Shown here: positions 10,095-29,420 of the stretch, piece after piece
How the letters are laid out: each line of letters begins with the position of its first letter
Position numbering within the stretch: the first letter of the stretch is position 1
From: Candidatus Saccharimonadota bacterium
GTDB lineage: Bacteria; Patescibacteriota; Gracilibacteria; BD1-5; UBA2023
Length of the DNA stretch: 32,000 bases
Reading direction: 5' to 3'
Assembly (NCBI GenBank): GCA_963706795.1
Contig: OY970170.1
Span: 720,001 to 752,000 of the forward strand
Notes under the pieces: model-generated
Databases searched by the model: none
What the model saw: only the letters and a program-made list of their open reading frames with translations
What the model was told of the DNA's origin: nothing
Translations under genes and position numbers: made by a program

Positions 10095-10592
10095 TTAAAA
10101 CGTGACGTATCGCTCGTCCGCTAACATTGCTTTGTTTACTTCTGTGTACTTAATTTCTTTAGGAATCGCCGATACCTTGATATTCATATCAAAGTAATCA
10201 ATGGCGATATATTCATCTTCCCTGATATAGCGGAAGAAGCTGCCGATGAATTCTTTTTTCCAGCCGATGTCTTCGCTTTCGAGAAGGGCACCAGTGTGAA
10301 TCAAGATTCCGATGCATTCAAAGCTCGACTTCAAGAGCTTGACTGCATCGTTGAGGGAAAGTGTACGGCCATATGCTTGCATGTATATGGCCATGACGTT
10401 CTTCTCTTCATTACTTCTTTTGGTGCGTGGTTCATCCGAATATGTAAAACAATCCGGATAATCCTGCACTGTCGTGAAGTATTCAGCGAACATCCGACGT
10501 GCCAGTTTGCTTTCAGACGGTAAGTCTTCAGGTATGATGCCTAATTTCCTGAGCTTATCGAGTCCTTCTACTATTGTATAAGACTTTAGCAT
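10095..10592 (-). CDS. hypothetical protein
   Basis: 165-aa intact ORF with an AAGGAG Shine-Dalgarno upstream of ATG 10592 and a TAA stop. No recognised domain. Confidence 0.65.
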   Translation of the reverse strand: MLKSYTIVEGLDKLRKLGIIPEDLPSESKLARRMFAEYFTTVQDYPDCFTYSDEPRTKRSNEEKNVMAIYMQAYGRTLSLNDAVKLLKSSFECIGILIHTGALLESEDIGWKKEFIGSFFRYIREDEYIAIDYFDMNIKVSAIPKEIKYTEVNKAMLADERYVTF

Positions 10593-13294: not shown

Positions 13295-13460
13295 AATTCG
13301 CAGAATAAAAAAATTTTGTCTTCAAAAATTAATAAATAATTAATAATTATGGATATTGTAGGTTGGTAAGGGTCGAGCTTTCAAGGAGGAAGCTCGACCC
13401 TTGCTTTGTGTCTGCACAGCATTCGTGCCAGTCTATACATATTTCTTCTCCTTTTTCTTC

Positions 13461-16400
13461 ATGAATTCACTTCGCAAGAAAGTATGTGCCATCTGGATGA
13501 TCGCACTCATAGTATCATCCCATCTCAGTATTGTAGAGGCCTCGAGTGGCCTGACTGACTTGGATAATTCGATCAACTCAAATCAATGAAATATAGAATC
13601 AAAGAAATGAATGGAGGAAGGAAGTGGAGGGATGCTCTCATGAGCTACTTTTACCGGAAACCTCTTGCCGGTATTAGCTCCTGAAAGTATTAACCTCGCT
13701 CCGGAGTCTCTTAAAATAGATACACCAACAATATTTACTGGGGCTACTGCCACAGGAACATCATTGTCTGGTGCAAGTCTCAAAGACGCCCCAGCCATCG
13801 ACTACAGTACCTATAAATATTACTCAGGATCATTTCTCTATAACGGTATAAGCTATGGGAATGGACTCTATTCCGATGATCTAGGGCTTCCACAATCGAA
13901 TATCCCAAATGTTCAAATTTATAGTTATAACGATTATCAAAAACTCAACACACCAAAAACCAAGACATTAAGTGCAAAGACATTCTCAACTCAGTCAACT
14001 CAGGGTGCTCAAGTATTTTCTATATCTTCGACAGGCCTTATTGGAAAGTGGGACTTAAATGGTAGTCCGGCTGATAGTAGTGGAAATGGAAATAATGCTG
14101 TAGCGAGCAATATGACATGGCCTAACGATTCTTCACTTACCGTGCAGAATAGTGTCGGAAATTTTAATGGCACAAATAGTTATTTAGATGCAGGTGATCC
14201 TTACGTATCAGGTGGAAGTTACATCATTTCTGGTTGGATCAAATCAACTGTTCCAGCAACTTCGGGTGATTACAATATCATCTATCGATATTCAGACTCT
14301 GCTGGTTATGACACGAGTCGAGTGTATTTTGGAGGATACGGCACCAATGCTCTCTATTGGAAGTTTATCACCGGTAATAATGCCGACGCAAATAATACCT
14401 TTGTTATCAGCAAAACATTTAACTCAAATCAGTGGTATCATGTTATCTTTGAGCTCGATAATGTAGACAAGAAAGCGCGATTTTATCTTGATGGTTCCCT
14501 CTATGCTCAGCAAGCATTCACGGGTGAAGTTTCAAAATCAAATCTTTCAGGACCACATAAGCTGTATTTCTGAAATCGATGGTACAATTCACAAAATGAA
14601 GGATGGAGTGGTAAAATGGCGCTTTTACGTTTTTTTAAGCGAGAGAAACTCTCGTCTTCTGAGGTGCAATCTCTCTATTCTGAAGGACTCTCGGCTCCTC
14701 CGACTCCATCCACCTCGGTGCCCTCTAGTATGTACCCCGCACCCTACCTCAGTGCTTACGCATGATCAACCTCCCAAATCGTAAACCGCAATAGTTTCCT
14801 CATTGGTGGTATGACGCTTGGATCGGACTCACTTATTGATCAACATTGGTCACTTTGAAACGACAAACATGGTGCAAAAAATGCGAGTGATGATGCAGCT
14901 GATCCTGTAAATCTCTCGAATGGTGAATTTACCTACGACAATACATTCGCGCATATTCCTGGCGTAAAAATCCCGTATGATTTTTCGCTCACTTATCGCA
15001 ATCAGTTGACCTACGATGGGCCGGTGGGGAATAGCTTCGATCACAATTATAATATCTTCCTCGCCGAAAATGCAGGGGATGGATCGGTGAGCTTGTATAA
15101 TGGGAAGCTCGGGATATTTAATTTTGCAGCTTCGGGATCGACATTTGCATATAGCCCTGGACTGAAGGCGAATCTGACAAAGAACGCGGGGCTGTACACG
15201 CTGACTTTTGATGATGGGATGGTGTATTCTTTTGGAACCAATCTCAAAATCTCAAAGCTTGCAGATCGCTATGCGAACGCACTCAATTTTGCTTATAACA
15301 CAGATAAGCAACTCACGACCGTGACGGATACGCTTGGTCGCGTGATTACGTATGCGTACAACGCAAATGCACGACTCTCGAGTGTAACAGACTTCAATGG
15401 AAGGGCGGTAAATCTCGCGTATTACGCAGCAGGTGATGCGGGTGGATCGGCGAATGATCTCAAGTCGGTGACGATTGCTGTTGGTGCGAGTACAAAGACT
15501 ATCTCATTTAGCTATACAGGATCGCACAATCTCCAAAATCTCATTGATGCGAAGGGGCAGACATATGTTACCAATACCTATGACACCAACAATCGCGTCC
15601 TCAGTCAGGTCTATGGATCAGGTACGACGAGCTATATATATGCGCTTACCGGCTCGATTGTAGCGACAAATACGGTAACTAATGCCAATGGTACTCAGAC
15701 GAAATATACTTTTGATGCCAATGGGAATACCACAAAGCGTGAGATTAATGATCTCACTGGTACAGGTGTAACGGTCTACAATTACGTATTTGATGCCAAT
15801 GCGCGTCTTATCAAGACGATTCTGCCTCGTGGGAATGGCAGCACATACAAATATGACAGCCGTGGTAATGTGATTGAGAAGCGTGAAAAAACCGATGCAA
15901 ATGCGGTAGATGGATCGTCTGATCTTGTGACGAACTATGTCTATGATGGCGTGTTTGATGTGCCTACGAGCATGACGCTCCCAAATGGATTTCAGAAGAG
16001 TTTTGTACTCGATGGAACAGGGAATATTCTCCAAGAAAGTGCTACGGGTATCATCAATCCCGATGCTACGACCTACAACACGACGACCGTTTACGAATAC
16101 AACCCTCAGGGCCTTCTTGCTAAAAAAACTGATGCTGAGGGGAATCAAACGACCTATGCGTATGGTTCTGGTCAGGTTATTACGGTGACGCATGGGACGG
16201 GCAGTATTGCTTCTACCGAATCTCTGAGTTATGACGCCTATGCGAATATCCTCACGAGTACTAATGGAGAAGGGAAAACTACCACATTTACCGTGACACC
16301 ATTTAATCTCACGGCGAGTGGTAAAACTACCGAAGGTATCGAAACTCGTTTTATCTATGATGCCAATAACAACAAAACCCGCCAAGAGACCTACACCCAA

Positions 16401-19400
16401 AGTGGAGGAATTGTCGGAGTGATCACATACGAATACGATATCCTCGATCGTCTCGCTAAAAAAACCACGCAGGTAGATGCGACAACATCGCTCGTAACCG
16501 TCATGACTTACGACCCAAATGGCAATATTCTCACAAACAAAGAAGGTTCCGGCGCGACTATCAAATATACCTACGACGCCATGAATCGCGCTACCGAAAA
16601 GCGCATTGTCATGGACCCAAATAATGCTTCGCTCGATATCGTGACAAGCTTTGTATATGACCGTAATGGTAATCAGATAAGAGTGACCGATCCGCTTGGC
16701 AATCAGACGATTTCTAATTTTGATCTCTTCGATCGCCCAATTAAAAAGACCGATCCGACTAGTACATACGCAACCTATTCATATGACAAAATAGGGAATG
16801 TTACTGAGGTTGATGCGTATAGCACAGGCAATACGCTGCTTCAAAAGACGACTTCGCTCTATGACGGACTCGGGCAAAAAATCCAGACGACTGCTTTTGA
16901 TCTCACAAATGCAACGCCCGTAAATATCGTCACAAGCCTCAAGTACGACAAAAATGGACATCCCAAAGAATCCACCGATGCCAAAGGCAACAAAACAACC
17001 ACGACATATGACAGTCTCGGGCGACCATCTCAGATTACAGATGCACTTGGTAACAAAACGACCAGTGCCTACGACAAGCGCAATCTCGTCATCTCAAAGA
17101 GCATCGTCCCAAATACGGGTACAGGTGTCATCACAACCACTTCGCTCTATGACAATGACGGCCGCCTCACTCAAGAGACCAATAATCTTGGGAAGACAAA
17201 AGCCCTGAGCTATAACGCTCTCGGACAGGTAATCAGCGCAAAAGACGAAGAAAATAACATCACCAACTACGCCCGCAATTTTATCGGGAAGCCCACTACA
17301 GAGACTAAATATCTCTCTGGAGGAACGACTGTAGTCACGGGTTACAGTTATGACGAACGTGGCAATCTCACATTGATCACGGACGCAAAAAACAATGCGA
17401 CAGCCTATCAATATGACGCACTCAATCGCACAACCAAAGTCACCTATCCAGACAGCAAAATCCTCGTATCTGTCTATGACAAAAATTCCAATCTCACGAG
17501 CCAAACTGATCCAAATGGGACGGTCGTAGCAAATGTCTATGATCCTCGCAATCTCCTGACCACTAAGACTATCACTACAGGAACGGGGGTCATCGGTATC
17601 ACTTCCGAGGCCTACAGTTATGACGCACTTGGCCGACTCATCTCCGGCAATGACAGCAATCTGAGTAAGCTCGATTTTTCCTATGATAGCCAAGGAAGGC
17701 TCTTGTCTGAGACCAACTCTGGTACAGTGGTCGGGTACAATTATGATGCCAATAACAATCTCACGAAGCTCATCTATCCTGATCTCCGAGAACAGGTCTA
17801 TGGCTACGACGCTCTCAATCGTGCGACAAATATCACCTACAGCGGAGGTACGATTGCCACATATAGCTACAGCGGTATTGTAAATACCGGCATCACCTAC
17901 GGCAATGGAAAAACTGTCGCTCAGACCTTCGATGGGGTATTAAGGCTTCAGTCGCTAAATAATGGGATAAATTCGTATACCTACAGCTATGATGGCGTCT
18001 GAAATATCCTCGCCGACGGACAAAAGAACTACGCCTACGACACCCTCTATCGCCTCACTAATGCGAGCAGCGCACAGAGTGGAACAACCCTCGAATCCTT
18101 TAATTATGACAAAGCCGGCAATCGCACGAGCGATCTTGGGAATGCCTACACGAGCAATGCACTGAACCAATATTTGTCACTCTCAGGAGCCACGAATGTC
18201 GTCTACATCTACGATAATAACGGCAATATCACCGACAACGGCCGATATACATTCCAATACGACTACAAAAACCGTCTCCTCAAAGTAAATTCTGGCAGCA
18301 CCAACATCGACGAATTTACCTACGACATCCTCGGTCGCCGTATCACCAAAAAATCTGGCAACGAAACGACCAAATACGTATTCGCCGACAAAAATATCCT
18401 CACCGAAGCCCGCACCCAAAGTGGCTCAACCACCTTCCACAAAACCTACATCAACGGCCTCGGTACCGACAATCTCCTCGCCTATGACAACGAGGAAGTC
18501 AATCTCTCTCCAAGCGACAAGGAAGAACTCGGTTTCTGCAACACGAATGTTCTCTCTGCAACTGGGAGCTTCATCAAGTATGGCTACCAAAATATCGTAG
18601 ATCGATGTAATACACTCGGTAACTCAGGTTCAACCATCGTCACTAATCGATACTTCTTCCACAAGAATCATCTTGGAAGTGTTGTAGGGCTTACGAATAA
18701 CACATGAGTTCTCGTAGCAGAGTACCAATACGATACCTTCGGAAATCCTTCAGTACGAACATGAACTGGAGTATTCACCAAGGTTACACAAACATCACAG
18801 CTTTCATATGACAATACTCGATTCTTCACTGGGCGAGAATATGACAAAGAAATCGGACTCTATTACCTAAGAGCGAGATTTTATGATCCAACAACTGGAA
18901 GATTCATATCTAGAGATCCTATAGGTCAGAATGATCAGGTGAATCTGTATACGTATGTTGGGAATAATCCGTTAGGGTTTGTGGATTTGATGGGGATGAG
19001 TAGCAAACCGGCTGCTCTTACAGATAAAGAAAGATTTGAAAAGATTTCACAATTCATGCAGAGTAAAACATTTAGAAATTCTCTTTATAAAGAAGGCAAT
19101 ACTCAATCAATAGATTATTTGTGGGTATATTCGTTGCAAATTTCTAATTGAAATGTTCGTGATGCTTTTTCAACTATAAACAGTGCTGTCAGAGGTGTTC
19201 CACAGTATGATGAAGATGAAGTTGCTCAAAGTATTCGCAATTGAGTTATCCCTACTGGTTTAACATGAAAATATGAAGGTGGCGAATATGGCAATAAAGA
19301 TAAACTTCAACATTTCTTTAAGGCAGCTCAAATTTCCTATGTATTATCTGTATCGAATGATGTTGATATAGGGGGTGCAACAGTTGAAATTCTCTGACAA

Positions 19401-19568
19401 GGTAAAGAGATATTTCTAGATGAAATTCCGTATGCTTTCCATATTAAGGATGAGTGATATGATGCAAAGGATATAGACGCGAATAGAACTGGTGCCCAAT
19501 TCGGAAGATATCTAAAGAGGTATGAGAATTCAAGTGGTAATGTTTTACCCTCTTCTATTATTAAATAA
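13461..19568 (+). CDS. RHS/YD-repeat polymorphic toxin, WapA-like (signal peptide, LamG, YD repeats, RHS core, C-terminal toxin CT1)
   Basis: Track ORFs 13401-, 13665-, 15006-, 18174- and 18939- all lie in frame 0 and fuse through 14 TGAs with no TAA/TAG, giving 2035 aa. Signal: MNSLRKKVCAIWMIALIVSSHLSIVEA. Dozens of YD repeats (YxYDxxGNxxxxxD). Core end: RFFTGREYDKEIGLYYLRARFYDPTTGRFISRDPIGQNDQVNLYTYVGNNPLGFVDLMGM. Stop is TAA 19566. Confidence 0.92.
14034..14687 (+). other. LamG / concanavalin-A-like lectin domain of the RHS protein
   Basis: GKWDLNGSPADSSGNGNNAV...FNGTNSYLDAG...ISGWIKS...NQWYHVIFELD...ARFYLDGSLY...GKMALLRFFKREKLSSSEVQSLY matches the LamG_3 pattern. Confidence 0.75.
18641..18998 (+). 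repeat. RHS core 3' homology block, copy A (in the full-length gene)
   Basis: cactaatcgatacttcttccacaagaatcatcttggaagtgttgtagggcttacgaataacacatgagttctcgtagc... recurs at 20040. The first ~75 nt have only a few mismatches; the remainder is clearly homologous but more diverged. Confidence 0.9.
18999..19565 (+). other. CT1: variable C-terminal toxin domain of the full-length RHS protein (function unknown)
   Basis: Begins immediately after the ...VDLMGM core boundary, where similarity to the two downstream cassettes stops abruptly. 189 aa, with 5 in-frame TGAs. Confidence 0.7.
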
Positions 19569-19577
19569 GATGATCTT

Positions 19578-20036
19578 ATGTATAAAAAGTGGCTTGTTGC
19601 AGTTTTAGTTGTGTGGATTTTATTATCTCTTTTGTCGATGATAAATAGCAAATATTTTGTCAGCGATGTCCAGCACACAGAAAGTGTAAATATACTAAAT
19701 AAATCGACAGCAAATATTCAGATTAAGACACCACAGAGCTCCTCCTTTTTATATCCAGGAGAAAAGAGTGCTTTTCAAGTGGATATAAAAAAGTCTATTC
19801 AAGAAAGAATGTTTCAGATTCTAAATAGCAGTGGAGCTGTTATTTTCAGCTATCGGGACTTTGTCAGGCCTGCTAATGATAACGTGACTTGATATGAGGA
19901 GGCTCTAAAGGGAATTTATACCACAGGAAGTCTTTCTGTCCATACAACAGTGAGTCATAAAACAGACGCATACTACTTTCCGTTTTATATACTTAACGAG
20001 ATTATGGAACATGCGATCCATATTGATGTTAATTAA
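19578..20036 (+). CDS. putative immunity protein 1 (N-terminal membrane anchor)
   Basis: Starts 9 nt after the RHS stop. MYKKWLVAVLVVWILLSLLSMI forms a TM helix. One TGA (19890) is read through to TAA 20034. The assignment rests on its position immediately downstream of the toxin tip. Confidence 0.6.
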
Positions 20037-20868
20037 TATCACTAATCGATACTTCTTCCACAAGAATCATCTTGGAAGTGTTGTAGGGCTTACGAATAAC
20101 ACATGAGTTCTCGTAGCGGAGTACCAATACGATACCTTTGGAAATCCCTCTGCTAGATCAGGAAGCGGAGCATTCACAAAGATTACTTCAACTACTTCGA
20201 CACTCTACGACAATACTCGACTCTTCACTGGGCGAGAATATGACAAAGAACTCTCACTCTACTACCTAAGAGCGAGATTCTATGATCCAACAACTGGAAG
20301 ATTCATCTCACGAGATCCGATTGGGCAAAATGACCAGATTAATCTCTATGTATATGTCGGTAATAATCCGATGAGATTTGTGGATTTGATGGGGATGAAG
20401 ACAAAAATAGTCGCGACAATCACAATTTATTCCAGCAATGGATGAGCCTCAAGCGATTGAGATATTAGTGCTTGACATAGTTGGATTGAAATCACAAACA
20501 AGAGTACCAATATAACAATCACTTACTGACTATGGCCTAATAGATGATGAGAGGATGAGCCGAAATGGAAGGCTAAGCCTATCTTTAATGGTATTCAGAC
20601 TAATGGTCCAGAAAAATCGTATACTGAAAATGACTACAAACAAGCCGCATCTTTAACAATGTCACTAAACAAAGATCAATTAAAAGCAGTGAGAAGCAGT
20701 ATAGCAGATCAAATTGTTGACTGAAAGACCTGGGGTAACTTTGCACCTTGCTCAGACTTTGCATCGAATGTATGGAATTCTGTATCTAACAATACACTAG
20801 AAGATAGAAACGATTTTGGTCTAAGTAATCCGACTACTTTATTGAATTCTATTAACTCTTATAAGTAA
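20026..20868 (+). CDS. orphan RHS C-terminal cassette 1 (core fragment + toxin CT2)
   Basis: Homology to 18641-18998 starts at 20040. The frame is open back to ATG 20026, overlapping the immunity-1 stop. Peptide: (M)LINITNRYFFHKNHLGSVVGLTNNT[G]VLVAEYQYD...NNPMRFVDLMGM, followed by an unrelated 156-aa tip with 7 TGAs. Stop is TAA 20866. Confidence 0.8.
20040..20397 (+). repeat. RHS core 3' homology block, copy B
   Basis: Collinear with 18641-18998 and the same length (358 nt). Confidence 0.9.
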
Positions 20869-20873
20869 TTAAT

Positions 20874-21248
20874 ATGAAAAAATTCCTCACTATTCTGCTG
20901 GTAGCAATAGCATTATGATTAGTTATTTTCATATATGCTAAATATTTCTGGAAAGGCTCTTATATCCAAAATGGATGACAGAATATAAGAGTGCAATTAC
21001 GCTCTAGTGATGTAGAGTTTACTGTATCACCTATATCTTCTGCAAACTGAATAACTGCCATAGATACAAGATTAGATATCTCTAAGCGTAAAATTTATGT
21101 ATGGTATTATGCCAAATTTGTCAGTTTATTGAGTGGGCAAGGAGATTGAGGTAATACTCACATAAATATACCTGGAGAATATACTGTTATTTATTTAAAT
21201 CCTGATGGCACGGAACAGTTCATACAGACTATTTCTATAGAAAAATAG
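20874..21248 (+). CDS. putative immunity protein 2 (N-terminal membrane anchor)
   Basis: ATG sits 5 nt after the CT2 stop. MKKFLTILLVAIAL[G]LVIFIYAKYFW forms a TM helix. 124 aa, 4 in-frame TGAs, TAG stop at 21246. Confidence 0.6.
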
Positions 21249-21251
21249 TCA

Positions 21252-22079
21252 GATCCCTCTGTAAGATCAGGCACTGGAACATTCACAAAGATTACTCCAA
21301 CTACTTCGCCACTCTACGACAACAGTCGACTCTTTACTGGACGAGAATATGACAAAGAAATCGGACTCTACTACCTAAGAGCGAGATTCTATGATCCAAC
21401 AACTGGTCGATTTATATCACGAGATCCGATTGGGCAAAATGACCAGATTAATCTCTATGTCTATGTTGGGAATAATCCGTTAGGGTTTGTGGATTTGATG
21501 GGAAGAGAAAGTAAACCAGTGGTGCAGGTTTTTAGTAATGCAAAGAATGATATAAGTAAATTTCATGAAAACTTAGCACTACTAAGATCTAATACTAGCT
21601 GAAAGATGCAGACGATATTGGATAAACTATATCTTCCTTACAATGTAGACGAACCAAGTTCAAGGCCACTTGTTTATGCATATTATTTTAATTTAGAATA
21701 TCATGGCACAGTGCGCGGTGTTACTGGTGAGGGAAAGTATGATTTAGCACTTGGACAAAATGGCTGAGTGAATGCTATGTCATCTTATACGGCTGACGAT
21801 ATGTTTAATATACGTTGAACAAAAATTCCAGTAGCACAAGTTTCCAATGTTCTGACGGCTTTGAATGCATACCGCTTAGGTATTTCTGAAGATGAGCTTA
21901 AGACTGGTGCTATGGCAACGGTAGTTGCTTGAGGAGGGAATGGTATAAAATGAGAGATAAAAGACCATATTCTTTATGATGCAGGATATCAACTCGGTGA
22001 ACTTGAGAGATCGGGTGTATTAACAGATGAGATTCTTCTTCAGAAGCTTATTGATGCATCTCAAAAACGAGGTGACTAA
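21252..22079 (+). CDS. orphan RHS C-terminal cassette 2 (shorter core fragment + toxin CT3), no start codon at its 5' boundary
   Basis: Homology (atccctct..agatcagg...) starts at 21253, matching 20144 and 18745. It is in frame with immunity 2, directly after that gene's TAG. Peptide: ...FTGREYDKEIGLYYLRARFYDPTTGRFISRDPIGQNDQINLYVYVGNNPLGFVDLMG, then a unique 191-aa tip with 5 TGAs. The first in-frame GTG/TTG/ATG are at 21489-21498. Stop is TAA 22077. Confidence 0.75.
21253..21503 (+). repeat. RHS core 3' homology block, copy C (5'-truncated)
   Basis: Collinear with 18745-18995 and 20144-20394. Confidence 0.9.
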
Positions 22080-22105: not shown

Positions 22106-22639
22106 ATGAAACTTATCTATATCCTATTTGCGCTTGTTTCTGTATTTGGATACTTCTTGTATTTCAATGACGACTACAGCTTTGAGAAAAATAAGAAGCA
22201 AATTATAAATGATAGCGTTATAAGAATAGCAAGTGCACACGCTGAAATTGATATTCACTGAGATCAATTTCAGAAGGCTTTATTATTGCTACATAAGAAT
22301 TCAGTGAGTTTTTTAAGTTTTACAGGTACGGGTGCTATCGAGTATCAAGCAAATGATAATATGTATTCATTAGGCCAAGGACCTTTGACGAAGGATGAAA
22401 TATCCTCAATACAAGATTTGTATTCTCAGGCTCACATTGATCAAATCTATAGCAGAGATAACTTGGATACTTATTTCATAAAAGCACCTAAATTAGAAAT
22501 TTCTTTTGTATACTCGATTAAAGAAAGAAATTTCTATCCTACAGAAAAGGTAGGATACTGATTTATTATTGATGAGTATAAAAATTGGTGAATCCTGCAA
22601 TCATGTACTCGTAATACATGTCAAGAATGACAAAAATAG
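22106..22639 (+). CDS. putative immunity protein 3 (N-terminal membrane anchor)
   Basis: MKLIYILFALVSVFGYFLYF forms a TM helix. Track ORF 22286-22561 is extended in both directions through 4 TGAs. 177 aa, TAG stop at 22637. Confidence 0.6.
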
Positions 22640-24980: not shown

Positions 24981-25364
24981 ATGCCCACCATCTTCTTCAT
25001 CCATCTCCTCCTCATAATTGCCTGCACAGCGATCCTCGATTTTGTGTTCACGAAAAAGATTTCGACACAAAATCTCTGGATCGCCTGTATGGCTTTTGCG
25101 AGTTTTTGGATTATGGGGCTGTTTTTGTATTTGTCGATTGGGATCAGGATTGTGCGGTCGGCTGCGGCGTTATATATTTTCCCTGCGATGTTTTTGTTGT
25201 CGCTGTTTGTGAGTCCGTATCTGATTGCGCGACTTAAGAGGTCGCTTGCTTCGCAGAAAGGGAATGTTAGCTGACTCTTTATGGCGGTGAATTATGTTCT
25301 TGCTTTGCTGGGGCCGATCATCTTGTTTTTTATTGCGGTCCGGATCGATGAATCCCTTAGGTAG
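24981..25364 (+). CDS. small multipass membrane protein
   Basis: Track ORF 24981-25274 extended through TGA 25272 to TAG 25362. 127 aa, almost entirely hydrophobic segments. Confidence 0.6.
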
Positions 25365-25376
25365 TGAACTGTATTT

Positions 25377-25404
25377 TTGACATAGTTTTTACTGTCCGTA
25401 AACT
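25377..25404 (+). promoter_or_regulatory. promoter of paralog unit 1 (TTGACA-N16-TAAACT)
   Basis: TTGACA at 25377-25382 and TAAACT at 25399-25404. The same architecture and the same GTAAACTC core recur at units 2 and 3. Confidence 0.7.
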
Positions 25405-25456
25405 CACGCCAGCTTTTTTAAAGCATCAAACCAAAACCCATAGAAGGAGGTGTATC

Positions 25457-26164
25457 ATGGAAGTAACAGATCGAAATGTATGCCAGACTCTCAGGGATAC
25501 GTATGGACTTCGTAGTCTCCCACCTGATGTGGTACAGGTGTATCTAGAGAAACATCAATATGATGGCTTCAGTCAAAATGTACAAGCACGTCACAAAGCG
25601 ATATGGTGGTCGTTGTTCATTGTATTGAATCTCGCTGCGATCGTTCAGAGCTATATATTCGGTACGAGCATCAGTGGTTGGTTCAACATAATGACTTTGA
25701 TTGTTTCGTTCGCAAATATGTATCTCGTTGCTAATCTTCTTCGGATTATCTTTGGCGTTCACAGCTTTCATAAGGAGATGGAAGCTGCACAAGATACATC
25801 GAAGGTGATCGCGAAGTATTCAAATGAAGAGAAAGGATATGACTTGTTACGTCTCTCGTTTGAGTATCAGTGGGTATGTTACGAAGATCTCTCAAACTTC
25901 ACCATTGTTACTCTGCGCTGTCGGATCATATTTTGTATCATCCTGCTTTTAATGGGGTATGTAGAACATACTGTAATTCTCGTATTCTTGTTTGTAATAA
26001 CCGGCTTTGGCCAATGGTATGCGCAAACCAAAATTCATTCATACCTCTCGGCTCTGGCTCATTTCTATAATGACCCAACGAAGTGATACATACTGGTTGT
26101 TTCGCAAATATTTCCCTCTTTGGCGCCAGAATTTTGGCGTCTTTTTTGTGCTTCAAAATATTAA
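25457..26164 (+). CDS. 4-TM paralog family protein, copy 1 (function unknown)
   Basis: GGAGGTGTATC-ATG context. No internal TGA. N-terminal motif LRDTYGL and C-terminal motif QTKIHSYLSAL are shared with copies 2 and 3. The standard-code ORF ends at TGA 26084-26086. Under code 25 the first stop is TAA 26162, beyond the terminator. Confidence 0.65.
26122..26147 (+). terminator. terminator of unit 1
   Basis: ggcgcca-gaattt-tggcgtc hairpin followed by T6. Confidence 0.8.
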
Positions 26165-26175
26165 AAACCCATTAT

Positions 26176-26203
26176 TTGACATAAACAATCGTACATGTAA
26201 ACT
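26176..26203 (+). promoter_or_regulatory. promoter of paralog unit 2 (TTGACA-N16-TAAACT)
   Basis: TTGACA at 26176-26181 and TAAACT at 26198-26203. Confidence 0.7.
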
Positions 26204-26271
26204 CCGACGCAGTCTTCCAGGCAATGCACTGGATCACATACATCAAATCATACAAATACAGGAGGTGTATT

Positions 26272-26988
26272 ATGGAAAATCTTCCAGAAGATGTACCGCG
26301 GATGTTGCGTGAGAGGTATGGCAAATACTTCCCATTATCGGAAGAAATGGTCGTGGCTTATGAAAATAGACGAGGGACGAACGAGCTCATTTTAACAACG
26401 TTGCTGTGGGTAATGATTCTGCTCGTTGGTGTGCCAATTATGTTCGCATATTGGCAGTCACATGATCAGAATTTTGCTCGATTTCTTGCTATTCTGGCCG
26501 TAGTCTCGGTCATTCCATATGTGAGAGCTATCACTCTCATGGAGGGAATCAGGGAGGATGTAGAGTTATTCAACAATACGATTGCGGGTATTGATGAAAA
26601 AGAGCGTGCTCGGATGATTCAGAGTCACTTTATTGAATCAACTACGCCTGAATTACTCGAAGGTTGCTTCAAATTTGAGTGGATCAAGTATTCAAGCCCG
26701 CTTCTCTATGTTCGTCTAGCGCTTCAGTTGCTGTTCTGCATTATTCTTGCAACAGTACAGCAATGGGAATTTAGCATATTCCTCATAGCAGCGCTTGCTC
26801 TGCATGCCTATTACAAAATAGAAGCGCAGGGGCAAATTCATAAATATTTACAAAACCTACTCGACTTCAAGAACCATCCGATGCATGAGTGGTACTGAAT
26901 GTTGGGGGTATCGCATTGGGGGCACCGAGAAATCGGTGCCTTTTTTATGACTCACTCATGCGGTTGACATATATTTTCCACTTCGTAA
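26272..26988 (+). CDS. 4-TM paralog family protein, copy 2 (function unknown)
   Basis: AGGAGGTGTATT-ATG context. No internal TGA. Motifs LRERYGK and QGQIHKYLQNL. The standard-code ORF ends at TGA 26896-26898. Under code 25 the first stop is the TAA inside the -10 box of unit 3 (26986). Confidence 0.65.
26921..26946 (+). terminator. terminator of unit 2
   Basis: ggcaccga-GAAA-tcggtgcc, a perfect 8-bp stem with a GNRA loop, followed by T6. Confidence 0.85.
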
Positions 26989-26991
26989 ACT
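26964..26991 (+). promoter_or_regulatory. promoter of paralog unit 3 (TTGACA-N16-TAAACT)
   Basis: TTGACA at 26964-26969 and TAAACT at 26986-26991. Confidence 0.7.
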
Positions 26992-27068
26992 CTGATCAGT
27001 TTTCCGATTCGGTTGAGCTGGATTACCAAATCTGATTCATATCAAAACACAGAGAATGGAGGTATATC

Positions 27069-27683
27069 ATGTACAGCAAGCAAAACATTAATTCGTGTTT
27101 AGCTCATACGTATGGTCTGCAGGAACCATTGTCACCAGGTCTTATTGCTACATATAACAAAAAAGTCGTGGGCATTCCTGAGCTGGCATCATTTGCCTTT
27201 TGGCTTGTCTTGGGAATGGTGAGTGCCTCCTGTATCATCTTTTATGTTGATATAAAAGATCTCATGATTGGCTTTGGAGTCGTTGTTATTATCCTTAATG
27301 CTCATCCCATAAGGAGTATCCGTTGTACAACATCCGAGATCCATAGTCTTGCTATGCAGATGAGCGGTACTGAAGGTGAGCTGAGATCTCGCATACTCGA
27401 ACGACATCTCGATCAATCGAATGCTCAGTATTTGCTTGAGAGATGTTTTAGATATCAACATCTCTGTATTTGGCCAAAATTAGCGCTGTTGCGCTATGCA
27501 TGCTGTGCAATCTTTTACGGGGCGCTTCTATTCCAGGGGCAATACTGGCTCGCTGTTGGAGTGATTGCATCAGGCTTAGTAAGCATGTACCAAATAAGCA
27601 AAGCACAAGAGTACATTCAGTGGTACTTGCTGCAACTTATGGAAAAGGCGGGCGTGAAGTTTTTGATTATATGGCAAGTGTAA
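27069..27683 (+). CDS. 4-TM paralog family protein, copy 3 (function unknown)
   Basis: TGGAGGTATATC-ATG context. 204 aa, no internal TGA. Motifs LAHTYGL and KAQEYIQWYLLQL. It ends in a genuine TAA upstream of its terminator. Confidence 0.75.
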   Translation: MYSKQNINSCLAHTYGLQEPLSPGLIATYNKKVVGIPELASFAFWLVLGMVSASCIIFYVDIKDLMIGFGVVVIILNAHPIRSIRCTTSEIHSLAMQMSGTEGELRSRILERHLDQSNAQYLLERCFRYQHLCIWPKLALLRYACCAIFYGALLFQGQYWLAVGVIASGLVSMYQISKAQEYIQWYLLQLMEKAGVKFLIIWQV

Positions 27684-27706
27684 CTGACTGAATGCATCAA
27701 TAATCT

Positions 27707-27732
27707 GGCACCGAGAAATCGGTGTCTTTTTT
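27707..27732 (+). terminator. terminator of unit 3
   Basis: ggcaccga-GAAA-tcggtgtc followed by T6. 18 nt are identical to the unit 2 terminator. Confidence 0.85.
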
Positions 27733-27740
27733 ATGGCGTA

Positions 27741-27770
27741 AAAAAGATCCACATGACATGGATCTTTTGA
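27741..27770 (-). terminator. rho-independent terminator for the minus-strand membrane protein
   Basis: Minus strand reads aaaagatcca...tggatctttt and then further T. It lies directly after the TAA at 27772-27774. Confidence 0.75.
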
Positions 27771-27771
27771 T

Positions 27772-29097
27772 TTATGCTTTTTTCTTCGCCGTCTTCTTTT
27801 TTGTGACAGCTTTTTTCTTTGGTACATCTTCTTTTACTTCCTCTTTTTTCTCTTCAACAACTACTGGTGGTTTATTACTTGGACGTAGCTTTTTTGGTTT
27901 TGCCTCTGTCATTTCTCAAATCACTGTTGCTGGCTTACGAAGTATTCCAAATATGGAGAAATAAACCATGACCATCGCGCCTTCTGTGATCAAAAACCCG
28001 AGGAAGGTGAAGATGGATTCTATTTTCCATGCATCTGGATCGACGGCACTGTTATCGAGATATGGGAAGATGGCTTCGAGATATTGTGGATCAACACCAT
28101 CGGTTTTTGGATTGAATGCGTTGTTGATAGCGATGATACGCGCAATGTCTGTTTCGTTCAGCGCAAAGGCATTGAGGAAATGGTGCTTGATATATGAGTG
28201 ATCATCGACGAAGGTTTTTGGATCGGCTTTGGCGATTGCATTAATTGCGGTTTCTGCCCGTCCGATGAGGATTTTGTTACCAGTTCCTGTGATAAATCCG
28301 CCAACTGTTCCGATGATTGCAAGGAATGGGAGGATCAAAAAGAGCATCTTAAAGATCTTGCCCTTTGTGAGTGCGAGCGAATCTGTTACAAAGCTTCGGG
28401 CAGTCTTGGCCTTGTTTTCTTTATCCAAGAGCATCATATATCCGAATGTCATGCGGATCGCAAGAAGTGTCATCCATACGACACACACAACAAATCCAAC
28501 GAGCGAAATCCCGCCAAGGATCAACGAATGTGTCTGGTTACCTGGATTGAGTAGACCAAAATGCGTTGCCAGGAAGAGTACAAAAAGGATGGTGATCCCA
28601 GTCACGATCGGAGGCAAAACATAGAGCGAAGTCCACCCAAGAATCCCGAGGAACTTTTGGAGATGATAGCGCGAGAAAAACAGATTTTTAAAAATCGGGA
28701 GCTTCGTTCCTGCGAGGTAACTCTCATAGAGTTTGATCTCCAAAAAGTATGCATAAGTGAGTGTAAATCCAAAGATCGCAATAATCTTTACAAACAAAAT
28801 TCCCACACCGAGCAATATCCATGAATGCCCCATCAGTGCACCAAGAAGCCCATTATCAATACTTCCAGAAGTCGTAAAGAGTGAGAGCGAAGCCTCAGGT
28901 ACGGGACTGAGCACCACATATCCAGCCCAAACGATCAGTCCAATCGCCGGAAGAGAAAGAATTGTCGCGAAAACAAAGGCGTATGCCCAAATCACGATCT
29001 TGCTCGCATTCCAATGAAAGAAGTTTTTGTAGAGCAACGAAATATTTCGCATGATCAGTGTCAGCGAGAGCCAGTAGGTGTTGAGAATGGATTTCAT
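27772..29097 (-). CDS. multipass membrane protein with Lys/Glu-rich C-terminal tail
   Basis: Track ORF 27916-29106, with ATG at 29097 preferred over TTG 29106. The terminal TGA (tca at 27916-27918) is read as Gly and extends the protein by 47 aa: EMTEAKPKKLRPSNKPPVVVEEKKEEVKEDVPKKKAVTKKKTAKKKA. It then ends at TAA followed by a terminator. It has multiple long hydrophobic segments; no family recognised. Confidence 0.7.
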
Positions 29098-29221
29098 ATG
29101 GGGCAAAAGTTACATGGAGTCTAACAAGAGTCTGTGTTTTTTCAATTTTACTGCGTGCATACTGCATTCGTGAGTTTGACTCTGATGATTTTTTCTATAT
29201 CCTCTTTCTACAATTTACAGC

Positions 29222-29402
29222 GTTTGAGTGGCCAACACCCACGAGCTGAGGGAAGAACAGACTCGCGTCCTATTAGACCCCTCCGGAGCAGCCGTTACCG
29301 CATATCAAGTAGGATGATCTTCATCCAAGCCTCGGTGGCACCTTCCTTCTACGCTTAAGCTACGAAGGACCGAAGCACATGAATTATTCGTGTGTTTTTT
29401 TG
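29222..29402 (+). promoter_or_regulatory. T-box-like riboswitch leader (candidate Asp specifier) with attenuator terminator
   Basis: F-box CCGTTA at 29292-29297. Stem III-like hairpin ggatga-tct-tcatcc at 29312-29326. Antiterminator-like fold: cctcgg [TGGCACC bulge, 29336-29342] ttccttc...gaagga ccgaag. Terminator cacatgaa-tta-ttcgtgtg + T7 at 29377-29402, 19 nt before the aspS ATG. GAC triplets at 29260-29262 and 29276-29278. Confidence 0.6.
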
Positions 29403-29420
29403 TTTCTCTAAAAATTGCTT

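What the first reader, a model, noticed from the sequence alone, without database searches (positions are those of the whole stretch)
25377..27732. Tandem triplication of a complete transcription unit encoding a novel predicted 4-TM protein family, with regulatory parts conserved far better than the coding sequence
Three consecutive units of 771, 771 and 769 bp span 25377-26147, 26176-26946 and 26964-27732. Each consists of:
- a TTGACA-N16-(G)TAAACTC promoter
- an A/C-rich leader of 52-77 nt
- GGAGGT(G/A)TAT(C/T)-ATG
- a roughly 205-aa protein
- a ggc(a/g)cc(g)a...tggcg/tcggtg hairpin with T6; the unit 2 and unit 3 hairpins share 18 identical nt including a GAAA loop

The proteins are highly diverged. 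By eye only short motifs align: L-[RA]-x-[TR]-Y-G near the N-terminus and Q-x-(I/Y)-(H/I)-x-Y-L near the C-terminus. All three keep the same two-plus-two hydrophobic segment layout.

Independently transcribed, rapidly diverging membrane paralogs sitting directly downstream of a polymorphic toxin locus fit a diversifying immunity, exclusion or receptor-type function. I do not recognise the family.
Basis: seen in the sequence. Interest (0 to 1): 0.75.

Follow-up and report, generated by a model that had tools for sequence, protein, structure and literature searches.

The report
Three orphan membrane-gene units, recoded genome
Three back-to-back mini-genes, each with its own on-switch, ribosome-binding site and stop signal, encode very diverged copies of a membrane protein found nowhere else, and they sit in a tiny uncultured bacterium that reads the stop codon TGA as glycine, so their textbook control signals look foreign to it.

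Summary
The DNA observation holds. There are three units of 771, 771 and 769 bp. Each has TTGACAT-N14-GTAAACTC, GGAGGT-N5-ATG, a ~205-codon ORF and a hairpin plus T6. The proteins are true paralogs (22-23% identity, E 1e-4 to 6e-11) with four TM helices, N-in/C-in.

The window comes from a Gracilibacteria-type CPR bacterium that reads TGA as Gly (code 25). The "fragmented" RHS is one 2055-aa ORF.

Under code 25, P1 and P2 do not stop at TGA. They read through their own hairpins to TAA codons 15 and 40 nt beyond the T-runs. Only P3 (TAA) is a textbook unit.

The units are alien in style:
- Neither the window's other genes (one exception) nor 889 long ORFs in relatives' loci show Shine-Dalgarno use.
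- Consensus promoters are rare there.
- Island neighbours use TGA for 36% of Gly codons; P1-P3 use none.
- Composition is native-like.

No homolog or fold match turned up in 1.84 billion representative proteins, Pfam, NCBIfam, PADLOC, PHROGs, PDB or BFVD.

Best reading: moron-like accessory cassettes, possibly acquired across the code boundary, encoding protective inner-membrane proteins. The function is inferred, not shown.

The parts
25377..25405 (+). Unit 1 promoter-like block, TTGACAT-N14-GTAAACTC (-35 at 25377-25382, -10 TAAACT at 25399-25404)
   Evidence: family D2; 16 of 16 hexamer-plus-flank bases are invariant among the units
25446..25459 (+). Unit 1 Shine-Dalgarno GGAGGT plus 5-nt spacer plus ATG
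   Evidence: family D3
25457..26164 (+). P1 ORF under code 25 (235 aa). The homologous core is 25457-26083 (209 codons). The in-frame TGA at 26084-26086 reads as Gly. The first true stop, TAA at 26162-26164, lies 15 nt past the T-run.
26122..26147 (+). Unit 1 hairpin GGCGCCAG-AATT-TTGGCGTC plus T6; it lies inside the code-25 ORF
   Evidence: -11.9 kcal/mol; family D1
26176..26204 (+). Unit 2 promoter-like block
26261..26274 (+). Unit 2 Shine-Dalgarno plus ATG
26272..26988 (+). P2 ORF under code 25 (238 aa). The core is 26272-26895 (208 codons). TGA at 26896-26898 reads as Gly. The second TGA (26965-26967) is the TGA inside unit 3's TTGACA. The stop TAA (26986-26988) is the first three bases of unit 3's -10 box.
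   Evidence: positions read
26921..26946 (+). Unit 2 hairpin GGCACCGA-GAAA-TCGGTGCC plus T6; it lies inside the code-25 ORF
   Evidence: (-18.6 kcal/mol)
26964..26992 (+). Unit 3 promoter-like block
27058..27071 (+). Unit 3 Shine-Dalgarno GGAGGT plus ATG
27069..27683 (+). P3 ORF (204 aa). It has no TGA and stops at TAA 23 nt before its hairpin. It is the only unit that is complete under both codes.
27707..27732 (+). Unit 3 hairpin plus T6 (28/29 identical to unit 2's terminator)
   Evidence: -13.7 kcal/mol
13401..19568 (+). Context: a single 2055-aa RHS toxin ORF under code 25 (14 in-frame TGA). It heads a strain-specific island (13.3-27.7 kb) that ends with P1-P3.
24981..25364 (+). Context: upstream 127-aa ORF with four hydrophobic segments (read by eye from its sequence) and an in-frame TGA. 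Its TAG stop lies 12 nt before unit 1's -35. It is not homologous to P1-P3.
27772..29106 (-). Context: convergent 444-aa membrane protein. It is conserved next to aspS in relatives and marks the right edge of the island.

Best explanation
The region holds three self-contained, 'moron-like' expression units. Each carries one paralog of an orphan inner-membrane protein of about 205 aa. The protein has four TM helices in two hairpins. Its N-terminus, central 52-aa helical loop and C-terminus face the cytoplasm.

The host is a Gracilibacteria-type CPR bacterium that decodes UGA as glycine. The units sit at the far end of a strain-specific RHS island.

Their control signals are of the standard bacterial kind, which this lineage otherwise hardly uses:
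- a perfect TTGACA -35 box;
- a GGAGGT Shine-Dalgarno 5 nt from the ATG;
- a GC hairpin plus T6;
- TGA exactly where paralog homology ends in two of the three.

Inferred origin: an ancestral unit was duplicated twice as a whole unit in, or for, a standard-code, SD-using genetic background (a mobile element or a donor bacterium). The array was then acquired by the Gracilibacterium.

Follows from code 25 plus the reported absence of RF2 in this group: P1 and P2 are read through TGA and through their hairpins. That would either mask those terminators, giving read-through into the next unit, or leave non-stop mRNAs. P3 is expressed normally.

Inferred, weakest step: the proteins act in the cytoplasmic membrane as protective factors. 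They could give immunity to membrane-acting toxins or exclude incoming phage or DNA. The variable TM helices would set specificity, and the conserved cytoplasmic helices would serve a common scaffold or partner.
For: Anatomy and homology.

Fold and topology:
- The AF2 model has pLDDT 79.4 and pTM 0.69 and is all-helical, with two long TM hairpins.
- K+R counts are N-terminus 6/5/3, central loop 6/6/6 and C-terminus 2/2/3, against 0-1 in outer loops of 4-7 aa. Of 17 invariant residues, 15 are cytoplasmic.

Organism and code:
- aspS is 89% identical to that of Patescibacteria MAGs and 72-77% to many Gracilibacteria MAGs.
- With TAA/TAG as the only stops, the RHS becomes one 2055-aa ORF. All the ORFs end in TAA or TAG. 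There are 81 in-frame TGA in 8761 codons.
- TGA aligns with Gly at conserved TPR and RHS positions.
- prfB is reported absent from BD1-5 genomes (PMC6851277).

Foreign style of the signals:
- In the window, only P1-P3 and one other orphan gene have an SD.
- In 889 long ORFs from 80 related loci, SD 5-mers occur 20 times upstream of the first ATG and 16 times in the control region.
- There are essentially no GGAGG-led ORF starts in 1.19 Mb of related loci.
- Consensus promoters are barely enriched in relatives, and this promoter pattern is absent from all 82 loci.
- TGA makes up 0/33 Gly codons in P1-P3 against 36/100 in the adjacent island genes.

Accessory status:
- Relatives have CAP/DPBB gene, beta-propeller, 1.4-6 kb, then aspS. 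The 14-kb island is missing there.
- No family member was found in 80 related loci.

Orphan status.

Precedents:
- Morons are independent promoter-gene-terminator units that often encode membrane exclusion proteins (PMC3594210).
- Standard-code phages are predicted to infect code-25 CPR bacteria (PMC10746230).
Against: - GC (42%) and codon usage (r = 0.84 against pooled native genes; native genes range 0.6-0.95) do not mark P1-P3 as foreign.
- No donor homolog exists in a collection dominated by standard-code bacteria.
- Zero TGA in 621 codons is also seen in native core genes: aspS 0/599 and the beta-propeller 1/770.
- For P1 and P2, TGA rather than TAA/TAG being the first stop-like codon has roughly a 1-in-9 chance.
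- No phage, integrase or att-like repeats flank the array.
- No transcript, protein or phenotype data exist, so the protective function rests on architecture and analogy only.
- The 3-sequence profile could miss relatives below about 20% identity or relatives fragmented by code-11 gene calling.
Confidence: 0.4

Rival explanations
1. Native, fast-evolving paralogs. The family arose and triplicated inside this Gracilibacteria lineage. The strong promoter, SD and TGA avoidance reflect selection for unusually high expression. The TGA codons after the conserved core are ordinary Gly codons in unconstrained C-terminal tails.
For: - GC, GC3 and codon usage fall within the native range.
- Native core genes also avoid TGA.
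- Native genes use the same type of intrinsic terminator.
- No donor homologs exist anywhere.
- The signals stayed conserved while synonymous sites saturated, which needs long-term selection in whatever host carried them.
Against: - SD use shows no enrichment in the window or in 889 long ORFs of relatives, so there is no evidence that this lineage uses SD even for highly expressed genes.
- In native genes of the window that have a terminator hairpin, TAA/TAG precedes it, whereas P1 and P2 read through theirs.
- The family is absent from all other sequenced relatives despite about 23% identity among the copies.
Confidence: 0.3
2. RHS-linked orphan immunity array. P1-P3 would be immunity proteins against membrane-acting RHS or other polymorphic toxins, kept as a diversified string like TsaI, EsaG or TipC.
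For: - They are tandem non-identical paralogs on the same strand, at the distal end of an RHS island that carries two orphan toxin modules.
- Strings of non-identical membrane immunity genes are known for TspA/TsaI (PMC9484751).
- The TM helices are the most variable part.
Against: - Each toxin C-terminal module already has an adjacent small anchored ORF: 19578-20036, 20874-21248 and 22106-22639.
- P1-P3 lie six genes away and differ from island genes in TGA use, GC, SD and transcription-unit design.
- No similarity to any immunity family was found.
- None of the three C-terminal domains matches a known toxin family, membrane-acting or otherwise.
Confidence: 0.15
3. The three paralogs are subunits of one hetero-oligomeric membrane complex (a channel, transporter accessory or anchoring scaffold) with a housekeeping-like role, not an arms-race role.
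For: - Conserved residues cluster in cytoplasmic helices that could form a shared interface.
- All three are intact and of equal size.
- The top, non-significant Foldseek hits include 4-TM bestrophin-type channels.
Against: - The Foldseek matches are not significant (E > 0.2, TM-score < 0.3).
- The genes are absent from every relative, so they cannot be housekeeping.
- Separate promoters and terminators are unusual for stoichiometric subunits.
Confidence: 0.1
4. Artefact or relic. Either 25.37-27.73 kb is a chimeric assembly insert from a standard-code organism, or the array is dead on arrival, with P1 and P2 made as non-stop products and degraded.
For: - Standard-code style signals and TGA ends.
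- Terminated P1 and P2 mRNAs would lack an in-frame stop.
Against: - Native, syntenic genes flank the array on both sides within one 1.27-Mb contig.
- Composition equals the genome's.
- All three ORFs are intact over 204-209 codons and show a protein-level selection signature, with codon position 2 far better conserved than position 3.
Confidence: 0.05

Closest known systems
Phage 'morons' (for example HK97 gp15), as reviewed in PMC3594210
   Same: Each is an autonomous promoter-gene-terminator unit. It is inserted relative to related genomes, its composition differs from the immediate neighbours, and it often encodes a small inner-membrane protein that protects the carrier (superinfection exclusion).
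   Different: - No prophage context is visible in the 32-kb window.
- There are three diverged paralogous units in tandem rather than single unrelated insertions.
- The host uses a different genetic code, which alters two of the three ORF ends.
Tandem strings of non-identical polymorphic-toxin immunity genes: TsaI (polytopic membrane, against TspA), EsaG and TipC (PMC9484751, PMC7456083)
   Same: Tandem, non-identical paralogs lie next to a polymorphic toxin locus. TsaI is likewise a polytopic membrane protein. Short conserved DNA blocks are shared among otherwise diverged copies.
   Different: - No sequence or profile similarity was found.
- The conserved blocks here are regulatory and non-coding (promoter, SD, terminator), not intragenic.
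- Identity is far lower (22-23%).
- The genes are not adjacent to a toxin gene, and each copy has its own promoter and terminator.
Standard-code phages or mobile DNA interacting with code-25 Gracilibacteria and Absconditabacteria (PMC10746230)
   Same: Genes free of in-frame TGA sit in a UGA = Gly host lineage, which fits genetic material that can work under both codes.
   Different: Those phages are reported to rely mostly on stop codons other than TGA. Here two of the three genes end their homologous core at TGA and so change product in the code-25 host. No phage genes accompany the array.
RHS/YD-repeat polymorphic toxin loci with orphan C-terminal toxin and immunity modules
   Same: The upstream 13.4-22.6 kb fits this kind:
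- a Laminin_G_3 domain plus RHS repeats;
- a core ending in ...DPIGQNDQVNLYTYVGNNPLGFVDLMG;
- two downstream orphan C-terminal modules that repeat the core end, each followed by a small anchored ORF.
   Different: P1-P3 are not part of the toxin/immunity repeat structure. They share none of its sequence, its codon habits or its operon-like packing.

Membership tests
Genetic code 25 (UGA = Gly; Gracilibacteria/Absconditabacteria) | In-frame TGA inside conserved genes, with ORFs closed only by TAA/TAG | tested here: met
   The RHS is one 2055-aa ORF with 14 TGA. There are 81 TGA in 8761 codons, and all ORFs end in TAA/TAG.
Genetic code 25 (UGA = Gly; Gracilibacteria/Absconditabacteria) | TGA aligns with glycine in homologs | tested here: met
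   TGA sits at TPR 'LG..Y' positions that are Gly in L012, and at RHS 'LTNNT-G-VLV' in both RHS copies. Elsewhere it aligns with G, S or A.
Genetic code 25 (UGA = Gly; Gracilibacteria/Absconditabacteria) | tRNA-Gly(UCA) present and RF2 (prfB) absent | not testable with these tools
   There is no tRNA in the window, and the rest of the genome is not available. The literature reports prfB absent from BD1-5 genomes (PMC6851277).
Genetic code 25 (UGA = Gly; Gracilibacteria/Absconditabacteria) | Phylogenetic placement in the recoded clade | tested here: met
   aspS is 72-89% identical to Gracilibacteria/Patescibacteria MAGs. The beta-propeller, membrane-protein and aspS synteny is shared.
Sigma-70-type promoter | -35 TTGACA, 16-18 nt spacer, -10 TAnnnT | tested here: met
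   TTGACA-N16-TAAACT occurs three times. Transcription initiation itself was not tested.
Intrinsic (factor-independent) terminator | GC-rich hairpin followed by a U-run | tested here: met
   Stem changes on both strands occur between unit 1 and units 2/3.
Intrinsic (factor-independent) terminator | Located downstream of the stop codon, in untranslated RNA | tested here: not met
   Met only for unit 3. Under code 25 the hairpins of units 1 and 2 lie inside the ORFs, and the first TAA comes 15 and 40 nt past the T-run.
Phage moron | Own promoter and own terminator around one gene | tested here: met
   (by motif only).
Phage moron | Extra DNA relative to related genomes, with composition unlike the neighbours | tested here: met
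   The island is absent from relatives. GC is 42% against 37% for the upstream island genes, and TGA use is 0% against 36% of Gly codons.
Phage moron | Resides in a phage or prophage genome | tested here: not met
   The ORFs that were scanned gave no phage or integrase domain, and phage collections gave no hit. The region works like a moron but is not filed as one.
Polymorphic-toxin immunity gene string (TsaI/EsaG/TipC type) | Tandem non-identical paralogs | tested here: met
Polymorphic-toxin immunity gene string (TsaI/EsaG/TipC type) | Immediately downstream of the cognate toxin domain | tested here: not met
   The array lies 3.3 kb and six ORFs beyond the last orphan toxin module. Each module has its own adjacent ORF.
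Polymorphic-toxin immunity gene string (TsaI/EsaG/TipC type) | Sequence membership in a described immunity family | tested here: not met
   Pfam, NCBIfam and PADLOC gave no hit.
Polymorphic-toxin immunity gene string (TsaI/EsaG/TipC type) | Neutralises a toxin | not testable with these tools
   This needs co-expression experiments.

The most novel reading that the evidence does not exclude
The array is a standard-code, Shine-Dalgarno-dependent expression cassette that crossed a genetic-code boundary into a UGA = Gly CPR bacterium, from its host or prey or from a broad-host-range element. Recoding turned two stop codons into glycine. This fused the P1 and P2 ORFs to their own terminator hairpins, so translation now masks the terminators or yields non-stop mRNAs. 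The result is a natural example of how a code change rewires foreign transcription units.
Probability: 0.3. Interest if true: 0.75.

Novelty: new variant of a known kind. Interest (0 to 1): 0.58.

Why it matters
Gracilibacteria are uncultured, reduced, probably episymbiotic or predatory bacteria whose UGA = Gly code is thought to act as a barrier to gene exchange.

This array looks built for a standard-code, SD-using cell:
- consensus -35 box;
- strong Shine-Dalgarno;
- TGA at the end of the conserved core;
- no internal TGA.

If the foreign origin is right, it offers a concrete, testable case of what happens to foreign genes after they cross the code barrier: C-terminal read-through, terminators placed inside ORFs and possible non-stop mRNAs. 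It also offers a case of SD use in a lineage that shows no sign of using it.

Independently of origin, it defines a protein family with no detectable relative in about 15 billion predicted proteins. The three copies keep a confident 4-TM fold at 22% identity, which is a candidate for a new membrane-level protection function.

There is a practical point too. Public gene calls for this contig use code 11, so annotations and homology searches for this genome are systematically fragmented.

Tried and rejected
Searches that gave nothing:
- Family assignment: Pfam, NCBIfam, PADLOC, PHROGs and a PDB sequence profile gave nothing above noise.
- Homolog searches found only the three proteins themselves. 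This covers the word index, a 3-sequence HMM against 1.84 billion representatives (P0004 is a repeat artefact), GTDB genome contigs, IMG/VR, and phage and plasmid tblastn.
- The 80 aspS-linked loci of relatives gave nothing either, under codes 11 and 25.
- Fold search of a pLDDT-79 model against PDB and BFVD gave no hit with E < 0.01. The bestrophin and ClyA rows are not significant.
- Internal duplication (N-half against C-half) was rejected by hhalign: probability 0.8%, E = 0.067.
- No extra degenerate copies or relatedness to the neighbouring membrane ORFs was found.
- Searching for the terminator as a genome-specific repeat found the same 26-nt hairpin on two unrelated metagenome contigs behind unrelated sequence. 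It is a generic strong terminator and not a marker.
- No Rfam match was found in the leaders or units, and no tRNA.
- No att-like flanking repeats were found.
- The source contig could not be retrieved.

Considered but not established:
- Foreign origin by composition is not supported. Codon usage and GC are native-like.
- The absence of TGA is not significant against core genes. It is significant only against the island neighbours.
Full report
**1. The observation**

The exact pattern TTGACAT-N14-GTAAACTC occurs three times, at 25377, 26176 and 26964. It occurs nowhere else in the 32 kb without mismatches.

Each copy is followed, 52-77 nt after the -10 box, by GGAGGT(G/A)TAT(C/T)ATG. After that comes an ORF of 209, 208 or 204 codons, then a GC hairpin with a T6 run at 26122-26147, 26921-26946 or 27707-27732.

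The hairpins fold at -11.9, -18.6 and -13.7 kcal/mol, well below shuffled controls. Units 2 and 3 share 28 of 29 terminator bases. Unit 1 keeps the stem through changes on both strands.

An unbiased repeat search returns only three multi-unit families in this stretch: the terminator, the promoter and the RBS/start block. So the core claim is correct. The regulatory parts are conserved far better than the coding DNA.

**2. The proteins**

- Pairwise BLASTP gives 6e-11 (P1-P2), 2e-10 (P2-P3) and 1e-4 (P1-P3), at 22-23% identity over nearly the full length.
- In the codon-aligned comparison, third positions are 22-34% identical, which is saturated. Second positions are 51-55% identical.
- These are therefore old or fast-evolving paralogs under protein-level constraint, not noise.
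- Hydropathy and an AlphaFold2 model (pLDDT 79.4, pTM 0.69, from only three sequences) agree on the layout. There are two short N-terminal helices, a TM hairpin, two loop helices and a second TM hairpin whose last helix extends into a C-terminal amphipathic stretch.
- Lys+Arg counts are 6/5/3 in the N-terminus, 6/6/6 in the central loop and 2/2/3 in the C-terminus. The two outward loops are only 4-7 residues long and hold 0-1 such residues. By the positive-inside rule the topology is N-in/C-in.
- Of 17 invariant residues, 15 lie in the cytoplasmic segments. None lies in TM1, TM2, TM4 or the outer loops.
- A test for internal duplication of the two halves was negative.

**3. The genetic code changes the reading**

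The aspS gene at the right end of the window is 89% identical to that of Patescibacteria MAGs and 72-77% identical to many Candidatus Gracilibacteria MAGs. This clade reads UGA as glycine.

In the window, using only TAA and TAG as stops has these effects:
- Four same-frame 'RHS fragments' join into one 2055-aa ORF (13401-19568) with 14 in-frame TGA.
- The left third of the window becomes contiguous genes.
- Every ORF ends in TAA or TAG. In all there are 81 in-frame TGA in 8761 codons.
- TGA falls on conserved glycines, at the TPR 'LG..Y' positions and at RHS '...LTNNT-G-VLVAEY' in both RHS copies.

prfB is reported absent from all BD1-5 genomes (PMC6851277). The ORF and translation tools here use table 11. 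So does the public protein collection for this contig: it holds the code-11 forms and not the code-25 forms.

**4. Consequences for the three units**

- P1's TGA (26084) and P2's TGA (26896) sit just where homology among the paralogs ends. In this organism they should be read as Gly.
- P1 then runs to TAA at 26162 (235 aa) and P2 to TAA at 26986 (238 aa).
- Both ORFs pass through their own hairpin and T-run. The first in-frame stop lies 15 nt (P1) and 40 nt (P2) beyond the T-run.
- P2's second TGA is the TGA inside unit 3's TTGACA. Its TAA is the first three bases of unit 3's -10 box.
- The tails are unrelated in sequence. They are dictated by the terminator DNA, not by protein conservation.
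- Only P3 (TAA, then 23 nt, then the hairpin) is a textbook unit.

By established principles, a hairpin inside translated RNA is a poor terminator. A transcript that does end there would have no stop codon. So units 1 and 2 either read through into the next unit or produce non-stop messages. This is inference. No expression data exist.

**5. The units are foreign in style to their host**

Shine-Dalgarno use:
- Of about 22 code-25 genes in the window, only P1-P3 and one other orphan gene (10095-10592, minus strand) have an SD.
- Genes with unambiguous starts, such as those with signal peptides, have none.
- In 889 long ORFs from 80 related loci, SD 5-mers occur 20 times upstream of the first ATG and 16 times in a control region.
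- GGAGG-N4-8-ATG at real ORF starts is essentially absent from 1.19 Mb of related loci.

Promoters:
- Consensus TTGACA...TAnnnT sites occur four times in the window, and three of those are in this array.
- They are barely above shuffled expectation in close relatives.
- The specific promoter pattern is absent from all 82 fetched loci.

Contrast with the island genes just upstream (19.5-25.4 kb):
- Those genes use TGA for 36 of 100 Gly codons. They have 37% GC and no SD, and they are packed operon-like.
- P1-P3 use TGA for 0 of 33 Gly codons. They have 42% GC and stand as separate units.

Against a foreign origin:
- GC and codon usage of P1-P3 are within the native range. The correlation with pooled native genes is r = 0.84, and individual native genes range from 0.6 to 0.95.
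- Native core genes also avoid TGA: aspS 0/599 and the beta-propeller 1/770.

**6. Context**

In eight relatives the gene order is CAP/DPBB protein, beta-propeller, 1.4-6 kb of varied content, then aspS. Three relatives also keep the 444-aa membrane protein next to aspS. The 14 kb between 13.3 and 27.7 kb is therefore a strain-specific island.

Under code 25 the island holds, in order:
- the RHS toxin;
- a small anchored ORF;
- an orphan RHS C-terminal module that repeats the core end (20011-20868), with its own anchored ORF (20874-21248);
- a second orphan module (21489-22079), also with an anchored ORF (22106-22639);
- a secreted TPR protein;
- three small membrane or anchored ORFs;
- P1-P3.

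But each toxin module already has an immunity-like neighbour, and P1-P3 are a distinct module.

**7. What the family is**

No match above noise was found in any of these:
- Pfam, NCBIfam, PADLOC, PHROGs or PDB sequences;
- Foldseek against PDB and BFVD, where the best E-value was 0.04;
- a 3-sequence profile against 1.84 billion representative proteins, which returned only the three proteins themselves plus a low-complexity artefact;
- genome, viral, phage and plasmid DNA scans;
- the relatives' loci.

One caveat applies. Relatives below about 20% identity, or relatives fragmented by code-11 gene calling, could be missed.

**8. Interpretation**

The best-supported description is three moron-like, self-contained expression units for an orphan N-in/C-in 4-TM protein, lying at the edge of an accessory island. 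Morons are defined as independent promoter-gene-terminator units that add DNA relative to related genomes, and they often encode inner-membrane exclusion proteins (PMC3594210). The design matches but the prophage context does not, so I do not file the array as a moron.

Strings of non-identical immunity genes are the other close analogy, including the polytopic TsaI (PMC9484751). Adjacency to a toxin and family membership both fail here.

The standard-code style of the signals fits reports of standard-code phages that interact with code-25 CPR hosts (PMC10746230). This makes acquisition across the code boundary a serious possibility, at about 0.3. A native origin with special expression needs is about equally likely.

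A protective membrane function (immunity or exclusion) is my committed guess, for these reasons:
- the array is accessory;
- it is strongly promoted;
- the copies are tandemly diversified;
- the variable helices lie within the membrane;
- the outward loops are too small for a receptor.

It is inference only.

**9. Verdict**

Interest is 0.58. Novelty is a new protein family in a new variant of a known kind of element.

Noticed in passing
window 1-32000 (for example 13401-19568): The whole window uses genetic code 25 (TGA = Gly). The apparent RHS 'fragments' (13665-14573, 15006-18002, 18174-18707 and 18939-19151) are one 2055-aa gene. The public protein collection holds only code-11 gene calls for this 1.27-Mb contig, so its annotation is fragmented.
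   Followed up: yes
window 10095-10592 (-), promoter-like site at 10802-10774 (-): A second gene has standard-style signals: AAGGAG Shine-Dalgarno, TTGACA-N17-TACTCT, no TGA and a TAA stop. It encodes a 165-aa orphan protein (only a self-hit). In relatives, the CAP/DPBB and beta-propeller genes that flank it here are only about 0.2-0.4 kb apart.
   Followed up: partly
window 20011-20868 and 21489-22079: Two orphan RHS C-terminal toxin modules repeat the end of the RHS core (...NRYFFHKNHLGSVVGLTNNTG... and ...VDLMG...). Each is followed by a small N-terminally anchored ORF (20874-21248 and 22106-22639). The toxin domains have no Pfam match. The first carries a GHSW...CSDF His/Cys pattern that might mark a papain-like fold.
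   Followed up: partly
window 29372-29408: A hairpin plus T-run on the + strand lies only about 10 nt upstream of the aspS start, inside the divergent intergenic region. It could be a leader attenuator. No Rfam family (T-box or other) matched.
   Followed up: no
window 27742-27768: A perfect 10-bp palindrome, AAAAGATCCA-CATGACA-TGGATCTTTT, lies between unit 3's terminator and the stop of the convergent 444-aa membrane gene. It probably serves as that gene's terminator or as a bidirectional one.
   Followed up: no
window 25377-27732: Unit lengths are 771, 771 and 769 bp, although the leader (52-77 nt), the CDS (204-209 codons) and the spacer after the CDS all differ between units. I have no explanation for this.
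   Followed up: no
window 27772-27915 (-): After its single TGA (codon 397), the 444-aa membrane protein continues with a 47-residue tail rich in Lys, Glu and Pro (...KPKKLRPSNKPP...KKKTAKKKA). Code-11 gene calling cuts this tail off.
   Followed up: no
L004 2096-2713 and L053 9341-9970: In two relatives the slot just upstream of aspS holds a conserved ~205-aa protein that starts MPQIIYILTNEAMPGYVKIGKTT... From memory this looks like a T5orf172/GIY-YIG type, which I did not test. It shows that this position is a variable insertion hotspot.
   Followed up: no
L081 2100-2434: An unrelated metagenome contig carries the identical 26-nt terminator hairpin behind a very GC-rich structured stretch. 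That stretch gives a sub-threshold Glutamine-II riboswitch hit on the opposite strand (24 bits, against a gathering score of 33).
   Followed up: partly
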